From an uncultured Enterobacteriaceae bacterium (GTDB lineage Bacteria > Pseudomonadota > Gammaproteobacteria > Eutrophobiales > Eutrophobiaceae), in assembly GCA_964523895.1 (NCBI GenBank), contig CAZGBJ010000001.1, forward strand, positions 93,633-157,632: a stretch of 64,000 bases of DNA. The letters run 5' to 3'. The notes beneath the pieces were generated by a model that ran no database searches, was not told the origin of the DNA, and saw nothing but the letters and a program-made list of their open reading frames with translations. The position numbers and the translations under genes are program-made. Position 1 is the stretch's first letter. Each line of letters starts with the position of its first letter. Below are positions 1,566 through 28,920 of the stretch, piece after piece.

Positions 1566-2534
1566 CTACTTATCTGACATATAGTCAGATGGCTTTATGT
1601 CCTTGATTAGGTAGAGCGGTCTATTTTTCGTTTCGTTAAACACTCGCCCAAGATATTCACCGATTATTCCCAAAGCTAATAACTGGATCCCACCAATAAA
1701 GGTAATTAATACGACTAATGAAGGGTAACCTGCGACAGGATCACCATACATCATCTTCTTAATGATAATAAAAATTGCAAAAGTCAGCCCGGCTATCGCA
1801 GATAAAACACCCAGCATTGAAGCAAGTCTTAATGGTAATACTGAAAACGAGGTTAATCCTTCGAAGGCTAAATCCAGTAAACCTAAAAACTTCCATTTTG
1901 TTTCACCCGCGTAGCGCTCATCACGCTCATAGGTAATTTCAGCTTGCGAATAACCTACCCACGCAAACAGACCTTTCATATAACGATGTTTTTCTCGTAA
2001 CTTTAATAACGCATCTAAAGCGTTTCTACTAAGCAACCTGAAGTCGCCCGTGTCCTTTGGTATTTTTATATCACTTAGTTGATATAGAAAACGATAATAG
2101 ACAAATGAAGAGATTTTTTTGAAGGCGCTTTCACCCCTTCTCTTGATTCTTTTTGCATTAACAACATCATATCCGTCACGCCATCGCTCAACCAATTTGG
2201 GGATCAACTCCGGGGGATCCTGCAAATCCGTATCGATAACAACAACAGCATCACCTGATGCATGATCCAATCCTGCAGTAAGCGCAATCTCTTTACCAAA
2301 ATTTCTGCTTAAATCAATAATGGAGATACGAGAATCGTTATTATGTTGCCTACTCATTATTTCAAGAGTGCCATCCTGACTACCGTCGTTCACATAGATA
2401 ATTTCCAGATCAAGGTTTAGAATTTTTACTGCATCCACAAGTCTTGAATAAAACTCATCCAGCCCTGCTTCCTCATTGTAAGCAGGCGCAACAATGGACA
2501 ATACTTTATTACTACCTGTCTCTTTACTTTCCAT
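1566..2534 (-). CDS. Family 2 glycosyltransferase, polyprenyl-phosphate sugar transferase type (GtrB/ArnC-like), C-terminal TM helices
   Basis: LSIVAPAYNEE...IIYVNDGSQDGT plus the DxD region and two C-terminal hydrophobic helices typical of undecaprenyl-phosphate glycosyltransferases. Confidence 0.8.
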   Translation of the reverse strand: MESKETGSNKVLSIVAPAYNEEAGLDEFYSRLVDAVKILNLDLEIIYVNDGSQDGTLEIMSRQHNNDSRISIIDLSRNFGKEIALTAGLDHASGDAVVVIDTDLQDPPELIPKLVERWRDGYDVVNAKRIKRRGESAFKKISSFVYYRFLYQLSDIKIPKDTGDFRLLSRNALDALLKLREKHRYMKGLFAWVGYSQAEITYERDERYAGETKWKFLGLLDLAFEGLTSFSVLPLRLASMLGVLSAIAGLTFAIFIIIKKMMYGDPVAGYPSLVVLITFIGGIQLLALGIIGEYLGRVFNETKNRPLYLIKDIKPSDYMSDK

Positions 2535-2536
2535 GT

Positions 2537-3268
2537 TTATATTTTTTCCGCAACAACTATGATTGAAAGACCAAAAGGAAAAGAAAAATGTCCTATTAAT
2601 CTGGATTCAAAACTGAATATTTTTTCAAGTAACATATTAATAAGTTTAGGCGGCATTTTTAGTTTATTGCCTTTTTCTGTTGGAAATATTTTTTGTTTTA
2701 TTCTGTCAACAAGTGCTAGTGGAAATAATAAAGAATTAAAGTATGAAATAGTATCTACTTTCCAGCCATTATTTTCTATCAAAATTTTTAAATATTTGGC
2801 AGTATATCTTCTTTTGTGATGGTGTTGTTCATCATGAGCAGTCCATAAAAATTGATATGCCGGAACAGTAATGATTAACTTTCCATTATCATTCACGTAG
2901 TCTCTTAATACAGCCAAACTCTCAGCGTCTTCATCAATATGTTCTAAAACATCCAATAGTACAATTAAATCGTTATTTTTATTTATCTCCGCTGGTATCT
3001 TATCTGGCAACGAACCTTTTGACACGTTGCCTATCTGTCTGGCTTTCGCTTTAAGTAAGGCATTATCATCTCGCTCCATAGCAGTAACATCACCGTATTT
3101 TGATAGGAAAGCAAGGTTGTCTCCATTACCACAACCCGCATCCATAATACGGGAAACTTTCTCAAGATCTAAGCTTTGAACAACACTATCAATTATTTTT
3201 CGTCGCGCAACAAACCACCAATGTTGAGTTTCAACGTTATACATTTCATCAAATAATTCATTTTCCAT
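2537..3268 (-). CDS. Class I SAM-dependent methyltransferase
   Basis: MDAGCGNGDNLAFL is a glycine-rich SAM-binding motif I. The likely true start is the internal MENELFDEMY (residue 33 of the track ORF), which removes the overlap with trmJ. Confidence 0.7.
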   Translation of the reverse strand: MENELFDEMYNVETQHWWFVARRKIIDSVVQSLDLEKVSRIMDAGCGNGDNLAFLSKYGDVTAMERDDNALLKAKARQIGNVSKGSLPDKIPAEINKNNDLIVLLDVLEHIDEDAESLAVLRDYVNDNGKLIITVPAYQFLWTAHDEQHHHKRRYTAKYLKILIENNGWKVDTISYFNSLLFPLALVDRIKQKIFPTEKGNKLKMPPKLINMLLEKIFSFESRLIGHFSFPFGLSIIVVAEKI

Positions 3269-3290
3269 AATAAAATCAGCGTTAATTCTT

Positions 3291-4016
3291 TTATTTATTT
3301 TTATCCTGAACTTTTGCCAAAATGCCGCGCAAGATATTACATTCATTTTCTTCCAGCTGCGCACGATTAAAAAGCCGACGCATTCTATGCATCAATAAAC
3401 GTGGATTTTCAGGATCATGAAAACCTATATCGACCATGCATTTTTCCAGATGCTGATAAAACATTTCCATTTTATCCTGATCAACTAATGGAGAATCGCT
3501 CTCCAGTAATTCATTGCTGCTATCACTAATACCTAACAGGTATATTTCATAACAAATAAGTTGCACTGCAGAAGCCAGATTTAGTGAACTATATTCTGTA
3601 TTAGCAGGAATTTGTAATACAAGATTACATAATTCCAGCTCTTCATTACTCAGACCTGAATTTTCTCTACCAAAGACAATAGCAACAGATGAATATTTAT
3701 TTTCAGAAATTGTTTTAGCGCATTCACGAGGAAAAACTAATGGCCATGGTATACTTCTGATGCGAGCACTCGTACCAATAACCAAATCACAATCTGAAAT
3801 TGCTTCTTTTAAATCCGAACAAACAGTTGCATTAGCCAAAATATCGTCGGCACCGGTCGCTCTTGCGGATGCTTCTGCAGAAGGAAAAATTTTGGGTTCA
3901 ACAAGATATAACTTTTCTTGTGACATCGTTTTCATTGCCCGTGCTGCCGCACCAATATTACCGGGATGGGTTGTTCCAACCAGCACTATCCTCGTTTTAT
4001 CTAAAATATTTTTCAT
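3291..4016 (-). CDS. trmJ: tRNA (cytidine/uridine-2'-O-)-methyltransferase TrmJ (SpoU family)
   Basis: IVLVGTTHPGNIGAAARAMKTM matches the E. coli TrmJ N-terminus. It is divergent from suhB as in E. coli. The start probably lies at the MKNILDKTRIV methionine. Confidence 0.85.
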   Translation of the reverse strand: MKNILDKTRIVLVGTTHPGNIGAAARAMKTMSQEKLYLVEPKIFPSAEASARATGADDILANATVCSDLKEAISDCDLVIGTSARIRSIPWPLVFPRECAKTISENKYSSVAIVFGRENSGLSNEELELCNLVLQIPANTEYSSLNLASAVQLICYEIYLLGISDSSNELLESDSPLVDQDKMEMFYQHLEKCMVDIGFHDPENPRLLMHRMRRLFNRAQLEENECNILRGILAKVQDKNK

Positions 4017-4083
4017 TCTTGTTATTGCTTCACTCATGACTACTGACAACGTAGAATAACTCGTTAACTATTTGGAGAACACT

Positions 4084-4854
4084 ATGCATCCCATGCTCAA
4101 TATCGCTATCCGTGCAGCCAGAGCTGCCGGCGACTCCATTGTACGTGAAATGGATCGCGTCAGTGATATTTCGATTGATATAAAAGGAAAAAATGATTTT
4201 GTAACGGAAGTTGATAGACAAGCTGAATATATTATCATCGAAACAATTAAGAAATCTTATCCTGATCATGCTTTTTTGGGAGAGGAATCAGGAAAATCGG
4301 GTGATAGTGAATACCTTTGGATCATTGATCCGCTCGATGGCACAACGAACTTCTTACATGGCATTCCCCATTTTGCTATTTCTATTGCTCTGCAATACAA
4401 AGATCGTCTTGATCAAGCCGTCATTTATGATCCGGTAAAACAAGAATTATTCACCGCATCACAAGGTAAAGGCGCGCAACTAAATGGTAAAAAAATCCGT
4501 GTTAGCCCACAAAAAACTCTTGATGGCGCACTGCTTGCCACCGGTTTTCCTTTTCGAGAAGACCAGGAAGTCGATAAGTTTATAAAAAGCTTTAAAGCAC
4601 TATTTCCGATGATAGCCGGTATCAGAAGAGCAGGCGTCGCATCACTTGATTTGGCTTATGTCGCAGCGGGAAGGTTCGATGGCTTTTGGGAATTTAGTTT
4701 AAAATCGTGGGATATTGCTGCAGGAGTATTAATTGTACAAGAAGCGGGGGGTATTAGTTCTGAAATAAATGGTGGATTGGATTATTTGGAAAGCGGCAAT
4801 ATTATTTCTGCAAACCCAAAATTAATGAAAGCTATATTACAAAATATATCTTAA
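4084..4854 (+). CDS. suhB: Inositol-1-monophosphatase SuhB
   Basis: MHPMLNIAIRAARAAG matches the E. coli SuhB N-terminus, and the WIIDPLDGTTNF metal-binding motif is present. Confidence 0.9.
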   Translation: MHPMLNIAIRAARAAGDSIVREMDRVSDISIDIKGKNDFVTEVDRQAEYIIIETIKKSYPDHAFLGEESGKSGDSEYLWIIDPLDGTTNFLHGIPHFAISIALQYKDRLDQAVIYDPVKQELFTASQGKGAQLNGKKIRVSPQKTLDGALLATGFPFREDQEVDKFIKSFKALFPMIAGIRRAGVASLDLAYVAAGRFDGFWEFSLKSWDIAAGVLIVQEAGGISSEINGGLDYLESGNIISANPKLMKAILQNIS

Positions 4855-4897
4855 CCTTATCTTAAATAAATAATTTATCATTCAATCATCATATATT

Positions 4898-5368
4898 TTA
4901 CTGATAAGTACTTAAACTTAAGTTATTCCTTTCTAATAAATCATAACGGATACCTTCAATTCCTTGTAATCTTTTCAAGATATGAAACCTCTCCTGACTT
5001 TGAGACTCCTCAGGAAAGACACTCTTTAAAAGAGAGGATATTTGAACATAGGTAAATTCATTTTCAGGATTACCCGCCAAAATTCGTATATACAGTTGAA
5101 TTTTTGGAAGCCCATCTTGTTCAGCTTCTACTAATTGGATCCACATATTATCAAGTTTATCATTCGTCATTTCAGCCAATGTCTTAACACGAAGTTTTTC
5201 TACAGCTTCAAATTGACCTGTGAAGAACAATTTATTATGTGACCTCATATAATTACGATATTTATCAACCTCTGTCTCTGCATTAAGCCACCATGCAAAT
5301 ACAAAGCAGATTACAATGGTACAAGCTAAAATTAGATGACCTATACAAAGGCCTTTATATTTAAACAT
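4898..5368 (-). CDS. Hypothetical membrane-anchored protein (156 aa), last gene of the CotH/VTC operon
   Basis: Single N-terminal hydrophobic helix (LCIGHLILACTIVICFVFAWW). Sits 30 nt downstream of the CotH gene on the same strand. No recognisable family. Confidence 0.45.
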   Translation of the reverse strand: MFKYKGLCIGHLILACTIVICFVFAWWLNAETEVDKYRNYMRSHNKLFFTGQFEAVEKLRVKTLAEMTNDKLDNMWIQLVEAEQDGLPKIQLYIRILAGNPENEFTYVQISSLLKSVFPEESQSQERFHILKRLQGIEGIRYDLLERNNLSLSTYQ

Positions 5369-5398
5369 TATCTTATGTTTTCATCATTCCTATTAAAC

Positions 5399-8101
5399 TT
5401 ACTTTAATGAGTGATATGCACTTTGTTTTATATGGTTTATTGATTCCTCGCCAACAACAATATCTTTTTCAGTAATGCCATGAAGACTCTTGCCAGATAT
5501 TACTCCTCCTCGACTATATCGCGCGTTCTTTCGATAAAGTGCTATGGCATTCCCCTTTTCAACTGAAAATTTAATATCCTCAACACGTACAATGGATTGA
5601 TCTTTAACCGCAATACCCAATACACAATCAGCAAGCTGACTCTTTTCAACTCTCACTTCACTTGCTTCACCGACTGAAATACATTTATCGCCGGTACCAT
5701 TGATATCAACATGACTAATTACTGATTTTGAATTCATCAGATCAATTGCATCATTTCCAATATTGTAAAAACGCGAATTAGATACAGAGACATCAACAAT
5801 ATCCATATCCAATGCATCAAAGGCTGTGTTATTAAATTCACAATTTCTAATGGCGCCACTACTATATGTGACATGCAAAGCATCATCGCCTACGGAATTA
5901 TTACTTATGAAACAGTTCTCTAATTGAAAAGAATTAACATAATGAATATTAAGCTGCCCCGGATAATTAATCAGGTTTCGTTGTGCAATAGAACCGCCAT
6001 TAACGTTAATATGAGCCATGACGCTTCCAGATGCTTCTTTACCTTGTATCACAATACTGCCCCAGGCCTGATCCAGATCTTTTTGTTTAAACTTGATTGG
6101 TGATTCTTCTGTTCCCTTTGCTATTACTTTTCCATAAAAAAATAGAGAACTATTCTTTGCCATCTTAAACACCGTCCCGGGCAAAATGTTTACTGTTTGC
6201 TCTTTTGTGAAATAGCGATCCTGATTAACTTCTATTTCACCCGATAATACAATCTCACTCACTACTTTTTCTTGTGTAAGTAATTCCCATGGATGAAATG
6301 AGGCTGTGTCAGCATCATCAGGTAAATTATCTACTTTTTCAATTGTTATGATATTTGAAGTGATTGCATTTTTACCTGTTAGTTTTTTTGTTTTAATTAG
6401 ATCAGCACTCTTCGCTCCTGTGATTAAGTATTCATAATGCAATGGTGATTGTTCATATGATTCATAAACTTTTGTTTCAGCCCCGCCTATTACATTATTT
6501 GATTGGTAACTTTCTGTTACTGCAATACCTGGATATAATCGATCTAATTGTTTTTTGTTTAGTACAGGATAAATCTCACCCTCATAGATGCGGAATAATT
6601 TAATTTCCTTATCGTTTGAATTTGACACAATTGACCAAGGATTAAAATCGACCGGACTGTTACCAAATATCGAAATAGAAACTTGAAACTGATCCTTAAT
6701 ATTCTCTTTAATATGATAATTTGCAGAAATAAAATTTAACCTATTCGCTATAAGTCCATATCGATAGTTATAAACTGTTTTCAACGTTTCGATAGCATTA
6801 CTATACTCATTCATAGAAAAAGGTAGAACCTTACCAAAACGACCAAATTTAAAATAATCATCGGGTTGTTGACGATAAGGATCCGCTGCTAGTTCACGTG
6901 CAATAATGTCATCTGCTTTATCAAGCATGTCAGCAACATAATCTACAGTAAACCTTTTCCGCAAATCATAAACTGTTAGATCATGTTCATATCTTAATAC
7001 AGGATTTAATAGTATTTGTTTATAGAGAGGTGTTACCGAAAGCGATTCGGATGTACTCCAAAAACGAATATCCCATTCAATCGGTTCAAATTTTCCTAAA
7101 TAGGGATCAAAATAAATTCGATGGTTATGAAATAAATCATGATGATCACTGCCAACTAATTTATCCAATGCCCAAAAAAGATAAAATTTATTCTTATCAA
7201 AGTAAGTGTCAAAATTTTTCATAAACATTAGTGGGTCTGGATCGTGAACCGATTTTATAAACAGCTCGATATCTTCACGGTTACCTGTTGATTCTATATT
7301 TCTTGAGGCATCTTTCTTCCATAATCTACTGTCAAACCATAATTCCGGTCTACCACGATTTACATAGACTTTCTCAGAAAGTCCTCTTTCTATTCCAAAT
7401 GGATCCGGCATATATATGGTATCGCCCGAATATATACTGCCGGGCATTCGATTATTTTTACGTAAAAATGATTCATCTATTTTACTTAGAAAAAAATGTA
7501 ATCCATTTGTTTCATTATTTATGAAGACACGTGCAGGAAAATATTCCGGCGTTAATAATCCAATCGAGCGCGCCATATCATAACTCACCCAGTCTGTAAC
7601 AGTGGCCATGGTTGATGGATTAACTAAATTAAACTGACGCTCATTACGATAAGTACTAAAAGGTGGGAGCTTGATTCTGATTGATTTTTTTTCATATAAC
7701 CAATGTAAATCCATTCCTCCCCGATAACGAAACTGAGCTTCACTTAAAAATTCCGGTCGATCTACCTTTAGATGACCTTTAACAAATTTACCTTTAGCAC
7801 TTTCAGGCAAGTTCGATACTAATGACTCTAAATCTTTATTATCAGCATATAAGTAAAATGAAGGTAGGCTAGTCTGTGCAGGTAGTTGTTTAATTGTTAA
7901 CTGTTGGTAATGGCGCTCTATATATTCGTTAATAAAATAGCGTAAATGGTCTAATGTATAACTTTCTTCAATAGCCATTACCTTCTTATATTGCATCATC
8001 TCTCTTACGCCACCAAACACAATACTACTTAATATAGTTAAGATGAATAGCGCTGAAAGAATAGGCCAATATGAACAATGTCTCGAGTGACTAATATTCA
8101 T
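5399..8101 (-). CDS. CotH kinase family protein with N-terminal signal anchor and C-terminal right-handed parallel beta-helix (PbH1) domain
   Basis: Central region RYRGGMDLHWLYEKKSIRIKLPP...QFNLVNPSTMATVTDWVSYDMARSIGLLTPEYFPARVFINNETNGLHFFLSKIDESFLRKNN...IYSGD fits the CotH domain pattern. The C-terminal ~200 aa carry repeated NxxxGDDAL, NTAFDALDMD, NIGNDAIDLM and GTGDKCISVG units typical of pectate-lyase-like beta-helices. The N-terminal hydrophobic segment is WPILSALFILTILSSIVFGG. Confidence 0.75.
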   Translation of the reverse strand: MNISHSRHCSYWPILSALFILTILSSIVFGGVREMMQYKKVMAIEESYTLDHLRYFINEYIERHYQQLTIKQLPAQTSLPSFYLYADNKDLESLVSNLPESAKGKFVKGHLKVDRPEFLSEAQFRYRGGMDLHWLYEKKSIRIKLPPFSTYRNERQFNLVNPSTMATVTDWVSYDMARSIGLLTPEYFPARVFINNETNGLHFFLSKIDESFLRKNNRMPGSIYSGDTIYMPDPFGIERGLSEKVYVNRGRPELWFDSRLWKKDASRNIESTGNREDIELFIKSVHDPDPLMFMKNFDTYFDKNKFYLFWALDKLVGSDHHDLFHNHRIYFDPYLGKFEPIEWDIRFWSTSESLSVTPLYKQILLNPVLRYEHDLTVYDLRKRFTVDYVADMLDKADDIIARELAADPYRQQPDDYFKFGRFGKVLPFSMNEYSNAIETLKTVYNYRYGLIANRLNFISANYHIKENIKDQFQVSISIFGNSPVDFNPWSIVSNSNDKEIKLFRIYEGEIYPVLNKKQLDRLYPGIAVTESYQSNNVIGGAETKVYESYEQSPLHYEYLITGAKSADLIKTKKLTGKNAITSNIITIEKVDNLPDDADTASFHPWELLTQEKVVSEIVLSGEIEVNQDRYFTKEQTVNILPGTVFKMAKNSSLFFYGKVIAKGTEESPIKFKQKDLDQAWGSIVIQGKEASGSVMAHINVNGGSIAQRNLINYPGQLNIHYVNSFQLENCFISNNSVGDDALHVTYSSGAIRNCEFNNTAFDALDMDIVDVSVSNSRFYNIGNDAIDLMNSKSVISHVDINGTGDKCISVGEASEVRVEKSQLADCVLGIAVKDQSIVRVEDIKFSVEKGNAIALYRKNARYSRGGVISGKSLHGITEKDIVVGEESINHIKQSAYHSLK

Positions 8102-9162
8102 AAATTGCCTTTGAATTCAGACTTGGCAACTTTACGAAAATCATTCCGCTTTGAATATCTGCCTAAAACAAGATAAATGAAAAGAAAGCCGATCATACTG
8201 AGACAAACAATCTGCCCAATCGAAAATAGTATTGGATATTCTCGAAATGATGCACGACTGGGTAAAATGGTTGTTGCCAACTTATGATATTCAGCATAAC
8301 CAAACCATGACGAGGATTTGATGTGAGGGAAATATAACTGGAATAATTTATCTGCTTGGCAAAAAAACATGTTGAGACTGCTTTCTTCATGTGCAGTAAG
8401 AATGTTTTCTTTATTAGAAAATATTTCGAACTTTAATAAAAACGAAGTGTTTGGCATACCAAAATCAACCACGCTGAACAAACTTAATGTGACAGCCCCA
8501 TATGGAATTCCAAAATGCGTTACTAAATTAACATTCTCAATTGATTTTAGCTTTAAAGACTCTGAAATTAGTTCCGGCTTTTCTATGTTAACAGTAGATA
8601 GCATTTCAAAAAGTATCGGCCGTTCTTTTCGTTTTACTCGTCCAAAAAGAGAGTGTTTATCGAATGGAGTTAATTTTTTGTTATAACTTCTTACAGTAAA
8701 ACTTTTCATCCCTTCAGTTAACTCGCCACGATCGCTAAAGATTATTTCTTCTTTTTCTACTCTATTTTCCGGTAAACTTTCATTGAATACATGCATCAAT
8801 TCTTTATTCGTATTTAGTAATTCCAAATTATCAAAATCATAATAAGTAATGCTTCTGGTAAGTTCTCCATCATAAATAATTAGTCGTGGTTCTTTAAAGG
8901 GAACATCTCTAGAGATACCTCGAATAAAAGTGGATACTGCAGCAATATCCTTATTATCAATTAAGTAATAAGTGTTTTTGAATTTTTGATTCTGACAAAC
9001 ATTTGGAAAAGCATCATTAGCAAAGACATGAGTAACTGTACACGTCAAAATACAGACGGTGACTAAAAAGAGTATCTTTACTATAGAAAACAATGGTGAA
9101 CTTCTATACAGAAGATAAATCCTGATCGTAAGTAACCAGAGTAGCTCGAATAACACTATCAT
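8098..9162 (-). CDS. Hypothetical protein (354 aa) with N-terminal signal/anchor and C-terminal TM helix
   Basis: In-operon ORF between the DUF4956 and CotH genes. The 5' end overlaps the DUF4956 stop by 59 nt, so the true start is probably internal. The C-terminal LFSIGQIVCLSMIGFLFIYLVLG is a TM helix. No family recognised. Confidence 0.5.
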   Translation of the reverse strand: MIVLFELLWLLTIRIYLLYRSSPLFSIVKILFLVTVCILTCTVTHVFANDAFPNVCQNQKFKNTYYLIDNKDIAAVSTFIRGISRDVPFKEPRLIIYDGELTRSITYYDFDNLELLNTNKELMHVFNESLPENRVEKEEIIFSDRGELTEGMKSFTVRSYNKKLTPFDKHSLFGRVKRKERPILFEMLSTVNIEKPELISESLKLKSIENVNLVTHFGIPYGAVTLSLFSVVDFGMPNTSFLLKFEIFSNKENILTAHEESSLNMFFCQADKLFQLYFPHIKSSSWFGYAEYHKLATTILPSRASFREYPILFSIGQIVCLSMIGFLFIYLVLGRYSKRNDFRKVAKSEFKGNL

Positions 9163-9820
9163 TAGTTTGCAGTTTATTCATAAAACCAGTTTGCTCTTGA
9201 TTTGTTTTTATCTCCAATGTGATCTCAGTTCCTGCAGCAGAAACTGTTTTTGATTTTATTGAAAAGAGATCAGCTTTTTGCTTTATTTCATTGAGAACAT
9301 TGTCTTCTTTTGATGAATCAGATAGTTGGATCACTAATAAAAACGTATCGGCTACGTCTTTTCCAGAACGTGTTAAAAACAGCATAAAAACTGCAATCAT
9401 AATAGAGCCAACAATTGAAATATTAAAATAACCAACGCCATTAGCAATACCAACACTAATCGCCCAAAATAGAAAAACGAGATCCATACTATCTTTAACC
9501 GGCGTTCTAAAACGAACAATCGACAATGCACCAACCATACCTAAAGAAAGTATCAAATTGCCACTGATCGTCATTATGATCATGGATGTCACTGTACTCG
9601 CTAAAACTAACGAGATATTAAAACTGCGTTGATATAAAACGCCCTGATATGTTTTCTTATAAATAAAAAATATAAACATGCCTACAAAAAATGACATCGA
9701 TATATTAAGCAGAATATTTAATGTTGTAATTCTATCCGTACTACCCATAGACATTGCGATAAAACTTTTCTGTAGTACGTCTGCAAAGGTAACTTGATCC
9801 ATGATTAGTTGTCCTCCCAT
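9104..9820 (-). CDS. DUF4956-like polytopic membrane protein
   Basis: 238 aa with four hydrophobic helices followed by a soluble C-terminal domain. Its gene order matches the conserved VTC/DUF4956/CotH triad. Confidence 0.6.
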   Translation of the reverse strand: MGGQLIMDQVTFADVLQKSFIAMSMGSTDRITTLNILLNISMSFFVGMFIFFIYKKTYQGVLYQRSFNISLVLASTVTSMIIMTISGNLILSLGMVGALSIVRFRTPVKDSMDLVFLFWAISVGIANGVGYFNISIVGSIMIAVFMLFLTRSGKDVADTFLLVIQLSDSSKEDNVLNEIKQKADLFSIKSKTVSAAGTEITLEIKTNQEQTGFMNKLQTNDSVIRATLVTYDQDLSSV

Positions 9821-10518
9821 TTACGGACTTTATGGAAACGTCTGGCTAATGTGTATTTACTAATAGCCATTCTTTCGGAATTAATTGATGATAATACATT
9901 CTTTAAATATCCAGGAAAAAAATTGTCATACTTTATTTCCAGTATTTGTTTGCCTTCAAGAATTACTGGCATCATATCTTTTACAGATGAAAACAAATCA
10001 AGGTGGTTTATATTCGAACGTAAACCTTGATCAAACGTCACTCTAATATTAGAAACAGGCAAAACATAAGCAACTCGATTATATTCAACGATCACTTTAG
10101 GTTTATAGAGCTTTGTAACAAAGGTGGTGTAAATTTCATTAAGAACAGGGTTATTTTTACCTAATAGCACAGTATAGTTACCCAGACATACTTGTTCAGC
10201 CTCTTCTTTGCTAATTATCGCAACATCTTTTTTTACAATTTGCCCCTGTTTACGCTTTATCTCAAATTTTACAGACTCATTGGCTCCGTCACCGTAGGTA
10301 CGTAATCGAATTTTTTTTCGCAATAGATTTCCTGACTGCTTCTCATATAAGCATTCATCGTCGTGCGAATCAAAGTAAAGACTACGTACACGATAACCTT
10401 GTTGATTCTTACAGTATGCATCGACATCCATCAACGAATTTAATTGATGTAACGATCTGTCAGATTGAATCTCGTTGAGATAGAATTTTAATTCGTAACG
10501 TTTTGATTGTATTTGCAC
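9805..10518 (-). CDS. VTC-domain (polyphosphate polymerase-like, CYTH/triphosphate tunnel) protein
   Basis: KRYELKFYL...VRSLYFDSHDDECLY...KKIRLRTYGD...KFEIKRK...YNRVAY...IRVTFDQGL...ILEIKYD...ISKYTLARRF follows the VTC-domain pattern: basic tunnel residues and the RxR/KxK, RxTxD and EIK motifs. Confidence 0.75.
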   Translation of the reverse strand: MQIQSKRYELKFYLNEIQSDRSLHQLNSLMDVDAYCKNQQGYRVRSLYFDSHDDECLYEKQSGNLLRKKIRLRTYGDGANESVKFEIKRKQGQIVKKDVAIISKEEAEQVCLGNYTVLLGKNNPVLNEIYTTFVTKLYKPKVIVEYNRVAYVLPVSNIRVTFDQGLRSNINHLDLFSSVKDMMPVILEGKQILEIKYDNFFPGYLKNVLSSINSERMAISKYTLARRFHKVRKWEDN

Positions 10519-10725
10519 TGATATAAAGTAATTTATATTTTTATAAATTTTATTTAATAGTTAACAATTTCTTTAATTCTGAAGAAATATATCATGTATG
10601 ACTGACAATATATTTCAACTAGTACTTACGTTATTGATTTCACAATTACACTTTAATTTATTTCGTATTAGATGAAAGATTGAATAACTTAATGTTTTTT
10701 CACAATAATATCTTTAGTAAAAACA

Positions 10726-10786
10726 TGACAATCTTGTCACTTTATGACAACAAAAGTCATTTTTATCGATTCGATATCAGTCGAAT
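10726..10786. promoter_or_regulatory. Cluster of three palindromes, candidate enhancer/UAS sites: TGACAAtcTTGTCA, ATGACaacaaaaGTCAT, ATCGAtTCGAT/ATTCGAtatcagTCGAAT
   Basis: Perfect inverted repeats read directly at 10726-10739, 10744-10760 and 10765-10786. They lie 75-135 bp upstream of the sigma-54 -24/-12 element of pilin 1, which is the position expected for a bacterial enhancer-binding protein such as PilR. They could instead serve the divergent VTC operon. Confidence 0.3.
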
Positions 10787-10858
10787 TTATTTTTATATGT
10801 TTCATTAAATTATTGAATATATTAGGAATATTTATTATATCTGTGTTTCTACCAATTC

Positions 10859-10875
10859 TGGCATAAGCTCTGCTT
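10859..10875 (+). promoter_or_regulatory. Sigma-54 (RpoN) -24/-12 promoter for pilin gene 1
   Basis: TGGCATaagctcTGCTT has GG and GC at the canonical 10-nt spacing (consensus TGGCAC-N5-TTGCW). It lies ~95 nt upstream of the pilin ATG. The sigma-54-dependent activator PilR is encoded nearby. Confidence 0.55.
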
Positions 10876-10968
10876 AACAGTAAACACCTCAAACTGAGGT
10901 AAAAACTATAGTTTTTGTAATCAGTTTTAAACTTATATAAACAAATCCATACAAACGGAGATTTTATA

Positions 10969-11388
10969 ATGAAACAAATGAAGAAAATCACTAGTACAAG
11001 TGAAAGAGGTTTTACTCTTATCGAATTAATGATTGTGGTTGCTATTATCGGTATTCTTGCCGCAGTAGCAATTCCGTCATATCGTGCATATGTTGCTGAA
11101 TCACACGGTGGTGCAGCAATGAAAGGTGTAGGTGCTTATGTATCTCAATCTCAAGTATGTGTCGAAACAGGTGTTGGCTGTACTGAATTAACTACCAGTG
11201 CTGGTGCTGATGCTGCGGTCACTTTAACCTCTGTTTCTGAAGGCGCTACTAGCTCAACCGTCGCATATAACGAAGGTGCCTGTATTATTACTGCTACCCT
11301 TGTTGCTGCATCTGTAACCTATGTTGCAACTGTTGGTACTGCAGGTGGTGCAACAGCTGCACAGTGTCAATCTGGCGCAGGTCTATAA
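10969..11388 (+). CDS. pilA: Type IVa major pilin (PilA-like), copy 1
   Basis: Leader ends ...SERG followed by [24 protein letters not shown], the class III signal peptide and N-terminal helix. GGAG RBS. Four Cys residues (one C-x6-C pair plus a C-terminal disulfide loop). Ser/Thr/Ala/Gly-rich C-terminal domain. Confidence 0.9.
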
Positions 11389-11412
11389 TTCTTAGATTAT
11401 AGAAACGTTACT

Positions 11413-11442
11413 AAAAAGACCCGCTGATGCGGGTCTTTTTAA
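11413..11442 (+). terminator. Rho-independent terminator after pilin 1
   Basis: aaaaAGACCCGCtgatGCGGGTCTtttt: an 8-bp GC-rich stem, 4-nt loop and T-run, A-tract upstream, so it is bidirectional in form. Confidence 0.8.
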
Positions 11443-11632
11443 ATAATAATAAAGATTTATGTGGTTCTGTGCTTAGTTGTTATTTACATCGATTCATAAG
11501 GTGTTTATTCATCTCAACCAAAAGATACATCTAGTCACATCCATGGGGAATGGATAGACGCTCAAAAGCTATATTCGCGTTGACTCCATTTACAGAAAAA
11601 ATATTTTTTGTATATCGTGAAGGAGTAAACTC

Positions 11633-12040
11633 ATGAATAATAAACACTCATCTCAACAGGGTTTTACCTTAATTGAATTAATGATCGTTGTTGCGATTAT
11701 CGGTATTCTTGCCGCAGTAGCAATTCCATCATATCGTGCTTATGTTGCTGAATCACATGGTGGTGCAGCTATGAAAGGGGTCAGTGCTTATGTGGCTCAG
11801 TCTCAAGCTTGCATTGAAACAGGTGTCGGTTGTACAGAATTAGCTACTAGTGCCGGTGGTGATGCAGCAGTCACTTTAACCTCTGTTTCTGAAGCTGCTA
11901 CCAGCTCAACCGTCGCATATAATGAAGGTGCTTGTATCGTTACTGCTACCCTCACTGCCGCATCTGTGGCCTATGTTGCAACTGTTGGTACTGCAGGTGG
12001 AGCAACAGCTGCACAGTGCCAAGCCGGAGCAGGTTTATAA
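11633..12040 (+). CDS. Type IVa major pilin, copy 2 (tandem paralog)
   Basis: Different leader ([10 protein letters not shown]). The mature protein differs from copy 1 at ~11 of 125 positions. AGGAG RBS. Confidence 0.9.
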
Positions 12041-12189
12041 TTATAAAACTGTTGAAATGTTACTAAAAAGATTTGTGTAGGTTTGCACTTAGTTGTTATA
12101 AAGTTACCAATTTCATTAGCTACTAAGTGTCATACTTACAAAGAGTTACAATCTTGTTATTCGTAAACAAATTTTCAACCCAATTCCGG

Positions 12190-13515
12190 TTATTTATTAA
12201 GACCATACTTATCTAAACGATAGCGTAAAACGCGTAAGCTTATACCCAATTTTTTCGCTGCCGCTGTTCGATTCCATTTAGTCTGCTCAAGCACTTCCAG
12301 AATAGCGTTTCGTTCTATGTCATCTAGTTGATTGACCAATGAAGCCGATTTCAGCTTATCTTGCTCGTTTTCGCCCTTACTTTTCTTGTCACTTAACAAT
12401 AAACCTTCTGGTTCAATTACATCGCTTTCAGCAAGCGTGAGTGCACGCTCAAGAATATTTTCCAGTTCACGAATATTGCCAGGGAAGTGATAAGTTTGAA
12501 GCTTACTTAAAGCCTCTGTAGATAAACGCGCTATCTGTTCTCCCGACTTATCTGCCATTTGCAACAAAATATGATTCACCAGGGAAACAATATCTTCCAT
12601 ACGATCTCTCAAAGCAGGAACATGAATTTCTATAACATTAATTCGATAATATAAATCCTTGCGAAAACTTTCCTGTTCCACCATCGCAGATAGTTGCTTA
12701 TGTGTTGCGCTTAAAATGCGTATGTCGATTTCTATTTCTTCTTGCGCGCCGACAGGTCGAATGCGTTTCTCCTGAATAGCACGTAATAATTTAACCTGAA
12801 GATGTAAGGGTAAATCCGCTACTTCATCAAGAAATAAAGTCCCTCCTTCAGCTGTATGAAGTAAACCTTCTTTATCAGAATCTGCGCCGGTAAAACTGCC
12901 TTTTTTGTGTCCAAAAAATTCACTTTCCATTAATTCATGCGGAATAGCACCACAATTAACCGGAACAAATGGTTTGTTAGTACGTGGACCAATATCATGA
13001 ATCATTCTTGCTACCAATTCTTTACCTGTACCCGATTCGCCGCTGATATGTATTGGTGCCTGACTACGAGCAACTTTATTAATCGTGTTATGCAATTCTC
13101 GAATGACGGTACTATCACCGACGATCGTTGCCTTTGAAGTATTATCACTTAAACCTGAATGCAAAGCATTTTGCACCACTGTTCTTAATGAATTTAAATC
13201 AATGGGTTTTGTCAGGAAATCAAACGCACCATATTTTAATGCCTGGATAGCACTATCCATACTTCCATGAGCGGTGATTACAGCAATAGGTATTTGTGGA
13301 AAATTCGCTTGTAATTCATTAACAAATTCTACACCATTGCCGTCGGGCAATTTCATATCTGTCAGACACAAATCAAATTTATATTGATCTAACAATAATC
13401 GCGCCTTGGCAAGATCCTCTGCGCAATGACAATCAATTTGCATCCGTTGCAGTGTTATCTGCAACAGCTCCCGAATATCTGGCTCATCATCAATGATTAA
13501 CGCAAGTTGCGACAT
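12190..13515 (-). CDS. pilR: Sigma-54-dependent response regulator PilR (NtrC family)
   Basis: REC domain (IIDDEPDIRELL...DMKLPDGNG), AAA+ sigma-54 activation domain (GESGTGKELVARMIH, GAFTGA) and a C-terminal Fis-type HTH. Very close to the P. aeruginosa PilR N-terminus. Confidence 0.9.
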   Translation of the reverse strand: MSQLALIIDDEPDIRELLQITLQRMQIDCHCAEDLAKARLLLDQYKFDLCLTDMKLPDGNGVEFVNELQANFPQIPIAVITAHGSMDSAIQALKYGAFDFLTKPIDLNSLRTVVQNALHSGLSDNTSKATIVGDSTVIRELHNTINKVARSQAPIHISGESGTGKELVARMIHDIGPRTNKPFVPVNCGAIPHELMESEFFGHKKGSFTGADSDKEGLLHTAEGGTLFLDEVADLPLHLQVKLLRAIQEKRIRPVGAQEEIEIDIRILSATHKQLSAMVEQESFRKDLYYRINVIEIHVPALRDRMEDIVSLVNHILLQMADKSGEQIARLSTEALSKLQTYHFPGNIRELENILERALTLAESDVIEPEGLLLSDKKSKGENEQDKLKSASLVNQLDDIERNAILEVLEQTKWNRTAAAKKLGISLRVLRYRLDKYGLNK

Positions 13516-13517
13516 AT

Positions 13518-27694: not shown

Positions 27695-27699
27695 ATATT

Positions 27700-28920
27700 A
27701 TGGCTGAAGCAAAAAAAGCAGATATGTATGCCTGGGAAGGCACGGACAAAAAAGGCAAACGTGTTAAAGGAGAGTTGAGTGGGCAGAGCGAAGCATTAGT
27801 AAAAGCCCAATTAAGACGCCAGGGCATTAATCCTCTTAAAGTTAAAAAGAAATCAAAACCTTTATTGGGCGGTGGTGGTGGAAAAATAACACCGAAAGAC
27901 ATCACAGTCTTTAGCCGACAGTTAGCTACAATGATGTCATCAGGTGTACCTCTTGTGCAGGCTTTCGAAATTGTTGGTCGAGGTCATGATAATCCTGCTA
28001 TGCAAGATTTAATTCTGGGCGTTAAAGCAGATGTAGAAGCGGGTAATAACCTAACTGAGGCACTCAGGAAAAAACCATTACAATTTAATGATTTATATTG
28101 CAACCTTGTAGAAGCAGGTGAACATGCCGGTATACTTGAAGCCATTCTGCATAAACTTGCAACCTACATGGAGAAATCTGAAGCATTAAAATCTAAAATC
28201 AAGGCAGCGTTATTCTACCCAGGTGCGGTTATAGCAATGGCAGGCATTGTTGTAAGTATCCTAATGATCTTTGTCATACCACAATTCTCTGAACTTTTTT
28301 CCAGCTTTGGCGCTGACTTACCGGCTCTAACACAACTATTGGTAGATTGTTCAAATTTTTTCGTTGCTTATTGGTGGCTAATATTTGGCGTTACCGGTGG
28401 CGCTATTTATGGCGCAATGGAGATAAAGAAAAGATCAAAAGCCGTCCAGCAATTTCTTGATCGGGCCATATTAAAAATGCCCGTTCTTGGTGAAATAATG
28501 GAAAAAGCCGCTATCGCTCGTTTTGCTCGAACGTTAGAAACCATGTTTGCAGCAGGTACGCCTATGGTAGAAGCTATGGTTTCGGTAGCAGGTGCTTGCG
28601 GTAATATTGTTTTTTATGATGCCACTATGAAAATGAAAGATGAAATTTCTACCGGCACACAGCTTCAGGCATCCATGAGAGAAACAGGTTTATTTCCAAA
28701 CATGGTCATTCAAATGGTAGCCATCGGTGAAGAATCAGGCGCTATAGATACTATGCTTGGTAAAGTTGCTGATTGGTATGAACAAGAAGTTGATGATGCT
28801 GTTGAAGCACTGACAAGTTTACTTGAGCCGGCGATTATGGCATTTTTAGGTGGCGTTATTGGTACCATTGTTATTGGTATGTATCTTCCTATCTTCCAGA
28901 TGGGTCAAGTCGTTAAGTAA
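27700..28920 (+). CDS. pilC: Type IV pilus platform protein PilC
   Basis: Two GspF repeats. 406 aa. Follows pilB. Confidence 0.95.
   Translation: MAEAKKADMYAWEGTDKKGKRVKGELSGQSEALVKAQLRRQGINPLKVKKKSKPLLGGGGGKITPKDITVFSRQLATMMSSGVPLVQAFEIVGRGHDNPAMQDLILGVKADVEAGNNLTEALRKKPLQFNDLYCNLVEAGEHAGILEAILHKLATYMEKSEALKSKIKAALFYPGAVIAMAGIVVSILMIFVIPQFSELFSSFGADLPALTQLLVDCSNFFVAYWWLIFGVTGGAIYGAMEIKKRSKAVQQFLDRAILKMPVLGEIMEKAAIARFARTLETMFAAGTPMVEAMVSVAGACGNIVFYDATMKMKDEISTGTQLQASMRETGLFPNMVIQMVAIGEESGAIDTMLGKVADWYEQEVDDAVEALTSLLEPAIMAFLGGVIGTIVIGMYLPIFQMGQVVK

What the first reader, a model, noticed from the sequence alone, without database searches (positions are those of the whole stretch)
4898..10518. 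AT-rich five-gene operon encoding the VTC-domain / DUF4956 / CotH-kinase triad, inserted between suhB and the pilin locus
Five co-directional, tightly packed or overlapping minus-strand genes sit in a visibly more AT-rich stretch than the flanking housekeeping DNA. That is consistent with horizontal acquisition. The VTC + DUF4956 + CotH gene neighbourhood recurs in unrelated bacteria, but to my knowledge no function has been shown for it. Working hypothesis (inference): the soluble VTC domain, a triphosphate-tunnel polyphosphate-polymerase fold, plus the polytopic DUF4956 membrane protein mirror the eukaryotic VTC complex, in which a catalytic domain is fused to a membrane channel. They could make and translocate polyphosphate across the inner membrane, where the exported CotH atypical kinase uses it (or ATP) to phosphorylate envelope or surface substrates. 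The neighbouring type IV pilins are obvious candidates. This would be a new extracytoplasmic phosphorylation system.
Basis: partly seen in the sequence, partly recalled or inferred. Interest (0 to 1): 0.85.

Follow-up and report, generated by a model that had tools for sequence, protein, structure and literature searches.

The report
Envelope-spanning VTC–DUF4956–CotH phosphate module
A five-gene operon pairs a cytoplasmic polyphosphate-polymerase-like enzyme and a conserved membrane protein with three membrane-tethered exported proteins (a kinase fused to a polysaccharide-handling domain, a second "phosphate tunnel" protein and a small adaptor), which suggests, untested, that bacteria export polyphosphate to chemically modify a surface sugar polymer.

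Summary
Five overlapping or tightly packed minus-strand genes (4898-10518) encode VTC, DUF4956 and CotH, all above Pfam cut-offs. The stretch is AT-rich (GC 0.336 against 0.391, 0.45th percentile).

The AT-richness comes mostly from amino-acid composition. Synonymous codon usage is typical, and there are no island hallmarks. The case for transfer rests on patchy distribution and on nearest relatives lying in other phyla.

The triad is already published as an accessory set beside Gram-positive Pel operons, and two of its genes have mutant phenotypes. This genome has no PelG.

New here:
- All five genes form a module that recurs across at least five phyla.
- The 354-aa "unknown" is an exported, membrane-tethered CYTH/TTM-fold protein with degenerate catalytic motifs.
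- The 156-aa gene is an anchored TPR-like adaptor.
- CotH is fused to an AlgG/RbmB-like polysaccharide β-helix.
- Some modules add a secreted pyrophosphatase or metallophosphoesterase.
- The VTC and CotH catalytic residues are invariant.

Best reading, which is inferred: polyphosphate is made in the cytoplasm, passed through DUF4956, and used outside by the CotH/β-helix enzyme on a surface glycan. Pilins are unlikely substrates, because the pilin adjacency is confined to one genus. Nothing has been tested biochemically.

The parts
9805..10518 (-). g5: soluble, cytoplasmic VTC-domain protein (237 aa), a Vtc4-like triphosphate-tunnel polyphosphate polymerase candidate with no TM segment
   Evidence: Pfam VTC at E 4e-38. 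No hydrophobic segment. A 19-sequence bacterial profile hits yeast Vtc4 (3g3q) at E 8e-20, better than the non-catalytic Vtc2 and Vtc3. Invariant R7/K11, R71/R73, E86/K88, E194/K196 and S220/K221 align to Vtc4 R196/K200, R264/R266, E279/K281, E426/K428 and S457/K458. R264A/R266A/E426N is the published inactive Vtc4 mutant (PMC9911596).
9104..9820 (-). g4: DUF4956 polytopic inner-membrane protein (238 aa) with 4-5 TM segments and a C-terminal soluble domain of about 80 aa; the proposed conduit
   Evidence: Pfam DUF4956 at E 5e-11. Hydrophobic segments between residues 31 and 153. The central stretch MTISGNLxLSLGMVGALSIVRFRTPxKD is invariant across five phyla at only about 50-57% overall identity. 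All 11 orthologues give a sub-threshold MgtC match (best E 0.003; NCBIfam MgtC/SapB at E 3.5e-4). Published description: MgtC-like TM domain plus an intracellular ACT domain (PMC12345266).
8098..9162 (-). g3: exported, membrane-tethered CYTH/TTM-fold protein (354 aa) with an N-terminal signal or TM segment, a periplasm-facing tunnel domain, a C-terminal TM helix (309-337) and a basic tail
   Evidence: No Pfam or NCBIfam hit for the protein itself. AF2 model with pLDDT 78.7 and pTM 0.66. Foldseek top hits are TTM enzymes at E 1e-6. VIA-align gives Z 13.6 to the YgiF TTM domain (187 aa, rmsd 3.9) and Z about 11 to Vtc2/Vtc4. The family has 236 representative clusters among 1.84e9 proteins. Six of ten distant members hit Pfam CYTH, four of them above the cut-off. 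Hydrophobic ends shown.
8260..8985 (-). TTM/CYTH-like tunnel domain of g3 (residues about 60-301); canonical catalytic motifs degenerate
   Evidence: This is the model range aligned to TTM structures. In alignment A8 the distant members keep RxExExK, RxRxR and ExE. The window's subfamily has KNTYY, MHV and KxE at those positions. The residues invariant across phyla are D109, Y160, K169, H170, R178 and R181.
5399..8101 (-). g2: N-terminally membrane-anchored, periplasm-facing CotH kinase fused to a polysaccharide-type right-handed beta-helix (900 aa)
   Evidence: Pfam CotH plus Beta_helix. Single N-terminal hydrophobic segment at residues 9-36. Full-length orthologues at 32-37% identity occur in four other phyla.
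6758..7729 (-). CotH atypical-kinase domain (residues 125-448) with intact catalytic motifs
   Evidence: phmmer to B. cereus CotH (5jd9) at E 9e-6. H320-H321-D322-x-x-H325-N326 and W343-D344 are invariant in 8 orthologues. D322 and D344 are 22 residues apart, against 23 for B. subtilis D228 and D251, the residues whose mutation inactivates CotH (PMC7821199).
5402..6271 (-). Beta-helix domain (residues about 611-900) of the polysaccharide epimerase/lyase/depolymerase type, with an invariant Asp-rich ladder
   Evidence: AF2 model of the C-terminal half with pLDDT 87.4. VIA-align gives Z 27.0 to AlgG 4ozz (266 aa, rmsd 2.4), Z 26.5 to AlgE4, Z 25.2 to the Vibrio VPS lyase RbmB, and Z 24-25 to phage capsule depolymerases. 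Invariant D739/D740/H743, D762/D765/D767, N783/D784/D787, D805/K806/E812 and K833/D834.
4898..5368 (-). g1: small N-terminally anchored helical-repeat (TPR-like) protein (156 aa), the conserved partner gene immediately downstream of cotH
   Evidence: One N-terminal hydrophobic segment at residues 4-32. Protein-atlas lead to TPR clusters at score 0.89. hhalign of the g1 family against the small anchored proteins that follow cotH in other phyla gives probability 88% and E 3e-6 over 105 columns. One of those proteins scores TPR_2 at E 2.5e-8.
10519..10968 (.). AT-rich (about 23% GC) intergenic region between the operon's first gene and the divergent pilin gene; presumed promoter region, not defined
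   Evidence: GC 0.23 in the 10501-11000 window. The sigma-70 pattern scan is no better than shuffles. A sigma-54-like TGGCAT-N5-TCTGC lies at 10859-10873 on the + strand, facing the pilin gene (the window-wide count is not above chance).

Best explanation
The five genes encode one conserved, laterally mobile machine centred on the inner membrane.

Shown by sequence or fold.
- g5 is a soluble Vtc4-like polyphosphate polymerase with every catalytic tunnel residue intact.
- g4 (DUF4956, distantly MgtC-like) is a polytopic membrane protein with an extremely conserved membrane core.
- g2, g3 and g1 all face the periplasm and are all tethered to the inner membrane.
- g2 is a CotH kinase with intact catalytic Asp residues, fused to an AlgG/RbmB-type polysaccharide beta-helix.
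- g3 is a second triphosphate-tunnel (CYTH) fold protein whose canonical catalytic motifs are degenerate but which keeps an invariant basic cluster.
- g1 is a small TPR-like adaptor.

Inferred mechanism.
- g5 polymerises polyP from ATP at the cytoplasmic face.
- The chain is passed through g4, by analogy with the eukaryotic VTC complex.
- g3 receives or holds the chain on the outside.
- The CotH/beta-helix enzyme, which has no ATP supply in the periplasm, uses the chain as phosphoryl donor, or attaches it, to modify a cell-surface polysaccharide.
- The neighbouring pilins are probably not the target.
For: 1. Unit. All five genes have counterparts in modules from Campylobacterota, Desulfovibrio, SAR324, Bacteroidales and unbinned metagenome contigs, in varying gene order. 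VTC and DUF4956 co-occur in 11 of 12 VTC-positive genomes out of 400.

2. Competent enzymes. The VTC invariant residues map onto Vtc4 R264/R266/E426/K200/K458 (PMC9911596). The CotH equivalents of D228 and D251 are invariant (PMC7821199).

3. Phosphoanhydride chemistry outside the cytoplasm.
- An exported CYTH/TTM-fold partner is present.
- One module (L046) has a version with intact RxExExK, RxRxR and ExE motifs.
- Three Campylobacterota modules insert a family I inorganic pyrophosphatase (E about 1e-34) that carries an N-terminal signal-peptide-like extension.
- Two modules add a Metallophos gene, and the one in L047 also carries PKD domains.

4. Tethering. All three exported proteins carry a single TM anchor, as expected for channelling a charged donor.

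5. A dedicated role. The genome has PPK1, PPK2 and PPX elsewhere, so this VTC is not needed for bulk polyP.

6. A glycan target.
- The beta-helix matches only polysaccharide-active enzymes at the top of the list.
- Modules elsewhere are embedded among glycosyltransferases and nucleotide-sugar genes.
- The Gram-positive triad sits beside pel, and two of its genes affect Pel-dependent aggregation (PMC7112168, PMC12345266).
Against: - No biochemical activity of any bacterial VTC-domain, DUF4956 or CotH/beta-helix protein was found in the literature searched.
- DUF4956 is unrelated to the DUF202 channel of eukaryotic VTC, and nothing shows that it conducts polyP.
- The window's g3 has lost the canonical TTM catalytic motifs, so its role is a guess.
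- Type-2 modules have no detectable CYTH partner, so that component is not universal.
- No polysaccharide locus lies next to the operon in this genome, and the genome has no PelG.
- The only characterised CotH enzymes are ATP-dependent protein kinases.
- No expression data exist for this organism.
Confidence: 0.4

Rival explanations
1. PolyP itself is the product. The module secretes polyphosphate onto the cell surface or into the matrix, for example as a polyanionic coat, a metal chelator or a biofilm component. The exported proteins only process, anchor or trim it. The CotH/beta-helix ties it to a polysaccharide or acts as a regulator.
For: The evidence for export is the same as in the best explanation. 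Exported pyrophosphatase and metallophosphoesterase genes fit trimming of an exported chain. The invariant Asp ladder on the beta-helix could bind divalent cations that bridge to polyP (inference).
Against: The CotH catalytic Asp, His and Asn residues are invariant over 32-71% identity, which argues for phosphotransfer and not mere binding. The beta-helix matches enzymes that act on sugar polymers.
Confidence: 0.2
2. Exported polyP (or ATP) is used by CotH to phosphorylate envelope proteins, with the adjacent type IV pilins as the prime substrates.
For: The operon abuts two pilin genes and pilSR in the window and in the congeners G001 and G006, and in locus L024. The characterised CotH enzymes are Ser/Thr protein kinases (PMC7821199).
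Against: Pilin adjacency is confined to one genus, where it is explained by common descent. None of the 21 module loci examined from other lineages has pilins. L045, which has the window's gene order, lies between an OTCase gene and a Na/Ala symporter gene. The fused beta-helix and the recurrent glycosyltransferase context point to a glycan.
Confidence: 0.1
3. There is no export. VTC and DUF4956 form a cytoplasmic-face phosphate or energy sensing and regulatory pair, in the manner of MgtC, that tunes a surface-polymer pathway. The VTC domain may act as a (poly)triphosphatase. CotH acts independently with some other donor, or as a non-catalytic adhesin.
For: DUF4956 is weakly MgtC-like and has an ACT-like cytoplasmic domain (PMC12345266). 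TTM enzymes are functionally diverse and include hydrolases and cyclases (PMC4641920, title and abstract listed). VTC and DUF4956 occur next to each other with no detectable CotH in one genome of the class sample, G266.
Against: The profile matches catalytic Vtc4 better than non-catalytic Vtc2/3, and every polymerase residue is retained. An exported CYTH protein and exported pyrophosphatases are hard to explain if no phosphoanhydride substrate exists outside. The CotH catalytic residues are conserved.
Confidence: 0.15

Closest known systems
Gram-positive Pel-associated accessory genes (cotH, polyphosphate polymerase/VTC, DUF4956, DUF4832); S. intermedius SIR_1592-1594 (PMC7112168, PMC12345266)
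   Same: The same three families are encoded side by side. CotH is predicted to be secreted, DUF4956 to have an MgtC-like TM domain plus an ACT domain, and the VTC protein to be soluble. The set is associated with a surface polysaccharide. The mechanism is unknown.
   Different: This genome has no pel locus: PelG was not found at 98.4% completeness. CotH is fused to a beta-helix and not to FN3. None of the five products matches DUF4832 in the Pfam scan. There are two extra conserved genes, an exported CYTH-like protein and an anchored TPR protein. The setting is Gram-negative, so the exported parts are periplasmic. The 2025 paper reports not finding the synteny outside Pel loci; this window and 21 other loci show that it does occur outside them.
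Eukaryotic VTC complex (Vtc4/Vtc3 or Vtc2/Vtc1), a coupled polyP polymerase and translocase (PMC9911596)
   Same: The catalytic TTM domain has all the key residues. It is encoded with a dedicated membrane protein. A second TTM-fold protein that is degenerate in most modules is also present, loosely like Vtc2/3.
   Different: There is no SPX domain. The membrane partner is DUF4956, not the DUF202 three-helix bundle, and it is a separate polypeptide. The second TTM protein lies on the opposite (outer) side of the membrane. Translocation has not been shown.
Bacillus CotH spore-coat Ser/Thr kinase (5jd9; PMC7821199)
   Same: Same Pfam family. The equivalents of catalytic D228 and D251 and the HN motif are conserved.
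   Different: About 900 aa, membrane-anchored and periplasmic, fused to a polysaccharide beta-helix, in a non-sporulating proteobacterium. The substrate and the phosphoryl donor are unknown.
Periplasmic or secreted polysaccharide beta-helix enzymes (alginate C5-epimerases AlgG and AlgE4, Vibrio VPS lyase RbmB, phage depolymerases)
   Same: Right-handed beta-helix with Z 25-27 over about 260 residues. Extracytoplasmic location.
   Different: 8-12% identity. The hit list is flat (Z 27 down to 23), so no specific activity can be assigned. The characteristic motifs of those enzymes were not tested. Here the domain is fused to a kinase.
CYTH/TTM enzymes (E. coli YgiF tripolyphosphatase, archaeal and plant TTMs, class IV adenylate cyclase)
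   Same: g3 shares the eight-stranded tunnel fold, with Z 11-13.6. Distant family members reach the Pfam CYTH model.
   Different: g3 is exported and tail-anchored, and it lacks the ExExK, RxR and ExE catalytic motifs. The known TTMs listed are soluble intracellular enzymes.

Membership tests
CotH kinase family (PF08757) | Match to the family HMM above the gathering score | tested here: met
   78.5 bits against a cut-off of 23.8, residues 125-448. phmmer to B. cereus CotH 5jd9 at E 9e-6.
CotH kinase family (PF08757) | Catalytic Asp (B. subtilis D228) and metal-binding Asp (D251) present | tested here: met
   D322 and D344 are invariant in 8 orthologues, 22 residues apart against 23 in B. subtilis (PMC7821199). 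The mapping goes through the B. cereus alignment with one local gap, so it is an inference at the one-residue level.
CotH kinase family (PF08757) | ATP-dependent Ser/Thr protein kinase activity | not testable with these tools
   Needs an enzyme assay.
Vtc4-type polyphosphate polymerase (VTC domain, PF09359) | Match to the family HMM above the gathering score | tested here: met
   131.6 bits against a cut-off of 23. The bacterial profile hits Vtc4 3g3q at E 8e-20.
Vtc4-type polyphosphate polymerase (VTC domain, PF09359) | Catalytic tunnel residues present (Vtc4 K200, R264, R266, K281, E426, K458) | tested here: met
   K11, R71, R73, K88, E194 and K221 are invariant in 19 bacterial sequences and align to these positions. 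The inactive mutant is defined in PMC9911596. The numbering of K200, K281 and K458 is from my recall plus a chain-index offset.
Eukaryotic VTC complex | SPX regulatory domain and a DUF202-type TM channel fused to or associated with the TTM domain | tested here: not met
   g5 carries only the VTC domain and has no TM segment. The neighbouring membrane protein is DUF4956.
Eukaryotic VTC complex | PolyP synthesis coupled to membrane translocation | not testable with these tools
   Needs reconstitution.
DUF4956 (PF16316) | Match to the family HMM above the gathering score | tested here: met
   43.2 bits against a cut-off of 30.6. All 11 orthologues match.
MgtC/SapB family (PF02308) | Match to the family HMM above the gathering score | tested here: inconclusive
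   All 11 orthologues match over the same region, but below threshold (best E 0.003; 14.5 bits against a cut-off of 31.4 for the window protein).
CYTH/TTM superfamily (for g3) | Eight-stranded triphosphate-tunnel fold | tested here: met
   Z 13.6 to YgiF. Dozens of TTM structures score Z 9-13 over model residues 60-301. Med18/20 also score about Z 10.
CYTH/TTM superfamily (for g3) | Match to Pfam CYTH (PF01928) | tested here: inconclusive
   g3 and its 11 close relatives have no hit. Six of ten distant members of the same HMM-defined family hit CYTH, four above the cut-off. hhalign of g3 against bacterial VTC is not significant.
CYTH/TTM superfamily (for g3) | Catalytic ExExK in strand 1 plus basic and acidic tunnel residues | tested here: not met
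   The window subfamily has KNTYY, MHV and KxE where distant members have RxExExK, RxRxR and ExE.
Pel-associated accessory cluster (Whitfield 2020) | Contiguous with pelDEADAFG | tested here: not met
   No polysaccharide genes in the window. No PelG in the 98.4%-complete genome.
Recently acquired genomic island | Atypical base composition | tested here: met
   0.45th percentile of GC.
Recently acquired genomic island | Atypical synonymous codon usage | tested here: not met
   Karlin B is 0.149 against a null of 0.136 +/- 0.026. Individual genes sit at the 47th-65th percentile.
Recently acquired genomic island | Mobility hallmarks (tRNA target, flanking repeats, integrase) | tested here: not met
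   No tRNA in the window. Only short chance repeats. No mobility family among the ten ORFs scanned from 3291 to 13515.
Recently acquired genomic island | Patchy phyletic distribution with nearest relatives in distant taxa | tested here: met
   Present in 5 of 22 congeners and in 0 of 18 genomes outside the genus. The nearest relatives are in other phyla. Orthologues in congeners are as conserved as suhB, so the acquisition predates the split of those species.

The most novel reading that the evidence does not exclude
Bacteria possess a dedicated trans-membrane polyphosphate synthase and exporter (VTC plus DUF4956) that supplies an energy-rich phosphoryl donor to the ATP-free extracytoplasmic space. 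There a tethered CotH/beta-helix enzyme, helped by an exported TTM-fold protein, phosphorylates or polyphosphorylates a surface polysaccharide. This would be a new route of polyP export and a new class of polyP-driven extracellular glycan kinase.
Probability: 0.3. Interest if true: 0.9.

Novelty: new variant of a known kind. Interest (0 to 1): 0.68.

Why it matters
Two questions are open. The first is how bacteria get polyphosphate to the cell surface or outside the cell. The second is what secreted CotH-type kinases use as a phosphoryl donor where there is no ATP. This module puts candidate answers in one operon: a competent-looking polymerase, a dedicated membrane protein, and exported phosphate-handling proteins.

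The module occurs in gut Bacteroidales, in streptococci and clostridia (next to Pel biofilm genes, with mutant phenotypes), and in environmental Campylobacterota and Proteobacteria. A mechanism worked out once would therefore apply widely, including to biofilm and aggregation traits of opportunistic pathogens.

The five-component Gram-negative version defined here gives a minimal gene set for reconstitution. It also shows that the system does not depend on Pel.

Tried and rejected
- Complex prediction of DUF4956 with VTC (1:1, with alignments) returned 'no answer' (score 0.00). This is no evidence for or against binding.
- hhalign of the g3 family against g5 or against the broad VTC profile was not significant (probability 0.5% and 4.8%). 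The g3 link to TTM enzymes therefore rests on fold and on transitive CYTH hits, and not on direct similarity to VTC.
- A narrow 11-sequence VTC profile found nothing in the PDB even at E = 10. Only the 19-sequence profile reached Vtc4.
- The protein atlas gave nothing usable for g3 (scores 0.80-0.82, TM below 0.3) and only a TPR lead for g1.
- Pfam and NCBIfam found no family for g1 or g3.
- The sigma-70 promoter scan was no better than shuffled sequence, and no convincing terminator was found. The sigma-54 pattern count was not above chance.
- No RNA holder was listed for the operon. The three DNA holders are subsurface metagenomes that may be the source sample.
- No flanking direct or inverted repeats beyond chance, and no tRNA.
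- The idea that the adjacent suhB is functionally linked was considered, because one Campylobacterota module sits among cysDN/cysC and a cysQ-like gene of the same phosphatase family. It was rejected. suhB and the SpoU methylase are conserved neighbours in congeners that lack the operon.
- The exported CYTH partner is not universal. Type-2 modules have none detectable. One far family member (P0162) lies in a defence island and not in a module. Three other look-ups gave contigs too short to judge.


Full report
OBSERVATION. Successive genes overlap by 16, 59 and 4 nt, followed by a 30-nt gap. Pfam confirms VTC (E 4e-38), DUF4956 (E 5e-11) and CotH (E 8e-22) with a C-terminal Beta_helix (E 3e-10). 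It also confirms the flanks: suhB, a SpoU methylase, two N_methyl pilins and PilR.

COMPOSITION. The region has GC 0.336 against a genome value of 0.391, which is the 0.45th percentile of equal-sized windows. The deficit lies mainly in codon positions 1 and 2. GC3 is only at the 5th-32nd percentile. Synonymous codon bias is ordinary: Karlin B is 0.149 against a null of 0.136 +/- 0.026. AT-codon amino acids (FYMINK) are enriched, at the 93rd percentile. There is no tRNA, no flanking repeat and no mobility gene.

ORIGIN. The genome (2.57 Mb, 98.4% complete) belongs to an uncultured gammaproteobacterial lineage known from MAGs, and the DNA is held by subsurface metagenomes.
- VTC is found in 5 of 22 congeners and in none of the 18 genomes outside the genus in that sample.
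- G001, G006 and a further related MAG (L024) have the operon next to the pilin locus, and G001 and G006 also show suhB on the other side. A fourth related MAG (L025) carries the same five-gene operon, but its contig ends inside the VTC gene.
- In these relatives VTC and DUF4956 are 83-89% identical to the window's proteins, about as conserved as SuhB. The operon was therefore already present in the ancestor of that subclade.
- CotH (59-71%), g3 (44-60%) and g1 (33-56%) diverge much faster.
- Two other congeners carry a different module at another locus, with VTC only about 30% identical.
- The window's VTC is 46-50% identical to proteins from Sulfurovum and other Campylobacterota, Desulfovibrio, SAR324 and Bacteroidales. 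That pattern supports lateral transfer, but not a recent one.
- In five congeners without the operon, synteny breaks right after suhB and the pilin locus lies elsewhere. A clean 'insertion' therefore cannot be shown.

CO-OCCURRENCE. Among 400 genomes sampled evenly from the class, 12 have VTC, 15 have DUF4956 and 20 have CotH at E <= 1e-5.
- 11 of the 12 VTC genomes have DUF4956, where about 0.45 would be expected if the two were independent.
- 8 of the 12 have CotH, where about 0.6 would be expected.
- The positive genomes come from different families.
- In nine genomes a CotH, or a divergent CotH/beta-helix that the Pfam scan missed, lies within 10 kb of VTC on the same contig.
- All three families also ring in the control genomes B. 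thetaiotaomicron, C. glutamicum and M. acetivorans.

WHAT IS ALREADY KNOWN. The neighbourhood is published. cotH, a polyphosphate polymerase gene, DUF4956 and DUF4832 are accessory genes contiguous with pelDEADAFG in streptococci, clostridia and bifidobacteria (PMC7112168). In S. intermedius, deleting SIR_1592 (MgtC-like TM plus ACT) or SIR_1594 (secreted CotH-FN3) lowers Pel levels and aggregation. Those authors note a possible role in phosphate metabolism and say they did not find the synteny outside Pel loci (PMC12345266). A C. perfringens pathogenicity locus has the same genes (PMC2879425). No paper among those searched proposes or tests a mechanism. Here the genome has no PelG and the window contains only housekeeping genes around the operon.

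THE TWO 'UNKNOWN' GENES.
g3.
- It has only 12 close relatives in the word-indexed search and no Pfam hit.
- Its AF2 model (pLDDT 78.7) is a triphosphate-tunnel fold. Foldseek gives E 1e-6 to YgiF. VIA-align gives Z 13.6 to YgiF, Z 11-12 to archaeal, plant and bacterial TTMs, and Z about 11 to Vtc2/Vtc4.
- A profile search of 1.84 billion representatives finds a small family of 236 clusters at E <= 1e-3.
- Six of ten distant members reach Pfam CYTH.
- Those distant members keep RxExExK, RxRxR and ExE. The window's subfamily has lost them but keeps D109, Y160, K169, H170, R178 and R181 across phyla.
- All members have a signal-peptide-like N-terminus and a C-terminal TM helix with a basic tail. 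The tunnel domain should therefore face the periplasm. This is inferred from the positive-inside rule.

g1.
- It is an N-anchored helical protein.
- Its family aligns with the small anchored proteins that follow cotH in other phyla (hhalign probability 88%, E 3e-6).
- One of those proteins is a bona fide TPR protein.

THE MODULE.
- In Sulfurovum and other Campylobacterota, Desulfovibrio, SAR324, another gammaproteobacterium (G365) and three metagenome contigs, the same parts recur in various orders: a CotH/beta-helix of about 860-920 aa, an anchored TPR protein, VTC, DUF4956 and an exported CYTH-like protein. In the Bacteroidales locus (L032) no CYTH-like gene was detected.
- L045 has the window's own order.
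- Three Campylobacterota modules insert a family I inorganic pyrophosphatase (E about 1e-34) with an N-terminal signal-peptide-like extension.
- L047 adds a PKD-domain metallophosphoesterase and L046 a Metallophos gene.
- In L046 the module is interleaved with GT2 and PMT_2 glycosyltransferases and lies downstream of nucleotide-sugar genes. L046 also has a CYTH partner with intact catalytic motifs.
- Several Campylobacterota and SAR324 loci are flanked by glycosyltransferase and nucleotide-sugar genes. I recognised these by reading their N-terminal sequences and did not scan them.
- A second module type (DUF4956, CotH/beta-helix and VTC) has no detectable CYTH partner.

ENZYME COMPETENCE.
- Across 19 bacterial VTC proteins as little as 19% identical, the invariant residues are the charged tunnel set.
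- That profile hits Vtc4 at E 8e-20, Vtc2 at 1.6e-10 and Vtc3 at about 1e-7 to 1e-9.
- It aligns g5 R71/R73/E194 with Vtc4 R264/R266/E426, the triple mutant used to inactivate the yeast enzyme, and g5 K11, K88 and S220/K221 with K200, K281 and S457/K458 (PMC9911596).
- CotH keeps H320-H321-D322-x-x-H325-N326 and W343-D344 in all eight orthologues. These correspond to B. subtilis D228 and D251.
- The beta-helix half (model pLDDT 87.4) matches AlgG (Z 27.0), AlgE4, the VPS lyase RbmB, phage depolymerases and polygalacturonases. It carries an invariant Asp-rich ladder.
- DUF4956 has an invariant membrane core across phyla and a consistent sub-threshold MgtC match.
- The genome has PPK1, PPK2 and PPX elsewhere.

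MECHANISM. The shown and inferred steps are separated in the Best explanation section. In short, a competent-looking polyP polymerase on the inside, a dedicated and highly constrained membrane protein, and three tethered exported proteins with phosphate-handling or glycan-handling folds fit best with coupled synthesis and export of polyP and its use outside. The periplasm has no ATP (established knowledge). Exported TTM, pyrophosphatase and phosphoesterase genes imply that a phosphoanhydride substrate exists outside. The glycan target is suggested by the beta-helix, by the glycosyltransferase contexts and by the Pel link. Pilin adjacency is genus-specific, so pilins are unlikely targets. No step has been tested biochemically.

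VERDICT. The triad itself is known, but the five-component Gram-negative form, the exported CYTH-fold partner, the CotH/beta-helix fusion, the exported pyrophosphatase in some modules and the independence from Pel are additions. I rate it a new variant of a known but mechanistically unexplained system, with interest 0.68.

Noticed in passing
window 10969-15131: Two tandem type IV pilin genes (10969-11388 and 11633-12040, both with the N_methyl motif) are followed by convergent PilR-like (12190-13515) and PilS-like (13518-15131) genes. pilB-like and pilC-like genes lie at 25979-28920. A sigma-54-like TGGCAT-N5-TCTGC lies at 10859-10873 (+), about 95 nt upstream of the first pilin gene.
   Followed up: partly
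window 4855 onward; L017-L021: The 3' end of suhB is a synteny breakpoint in this genus. Five congeners keep the SpoU methylase and suhB but have unrelated DNA downstream, and the pilin locus is elsewhere.
   Followed up: partly
L010 (G008), L011 (G004): Two congeners carry a second, divergent module type (DUF4956, CotH/beta-helix, VTC; VTC about 30% identical to the window's) at a different locus. This implies independent acquisitions within one genus.
   Followed up: partly
L027 11428-12075; L028 11391-12035; L031 11448-12092: A family I inorganic pyrophosphatase with an N-terminal signal-peptide-like extension is encoded inside the Campylobacterota modules, between DUF4956 and the CYTH-like gene. 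Family I pyrophosphatases are normally cytoplasmic.
   Followed up: partly
window 8098-9162 (start region 9045-9162): The long g3 ORF overlaps g4 by 59 nt. The database version of this protein is 316 aa, with a later start that removes the hydrophobic N-terminus. The upstream residues (IRIYLLYR...) are conserved in orthologues, which favours the long form.
   Followed up: partly
L028 6904-9638; L033 10589-13267: The CotH/beta-helix gene is split into two ORFs in one Campylobacterota MAG, and in G056 it carries an in-frame TAG. These could be pseudogenes or assembly errors.
   Followed up: no
L046 6919-7629 and 14539-15243: This metagenome module has two DUF4956 genes. GT2 and PMT_2 glycosyltransferases lie between the CotH-like beta-helix gene and DUF4956-VTC.
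   Followed up: no
L052 2669-3679: A far member of the exported CYTH family (P0162, intact ExExK) lies in a defence-island-like context (GmrSD, an MmeI-type restriction-modification enzyme, a DEAD helicase) and not in a VTC module.
   Followed up: no
window 2501-3000 (ORF 2537-3364, minus strand): This is the lowest-GC coding stretch in the first 20 kb outside the operon (0.29). The 275-aa ORF is only 66-71% identical in congeners while its neighbours are 76-87% identical. It is missing between the SpoU methylase and the 358-1401 ORF in G007.
   Followed up: no
window 33801-56261: A large ORF of 899 aa is followed by a long co-directional run of ORFs whose sizes and order look like a dcw-type cell-wall and division cluster. 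This was judged from ORF sizes and order only and was not scanned.
   Followed up: no
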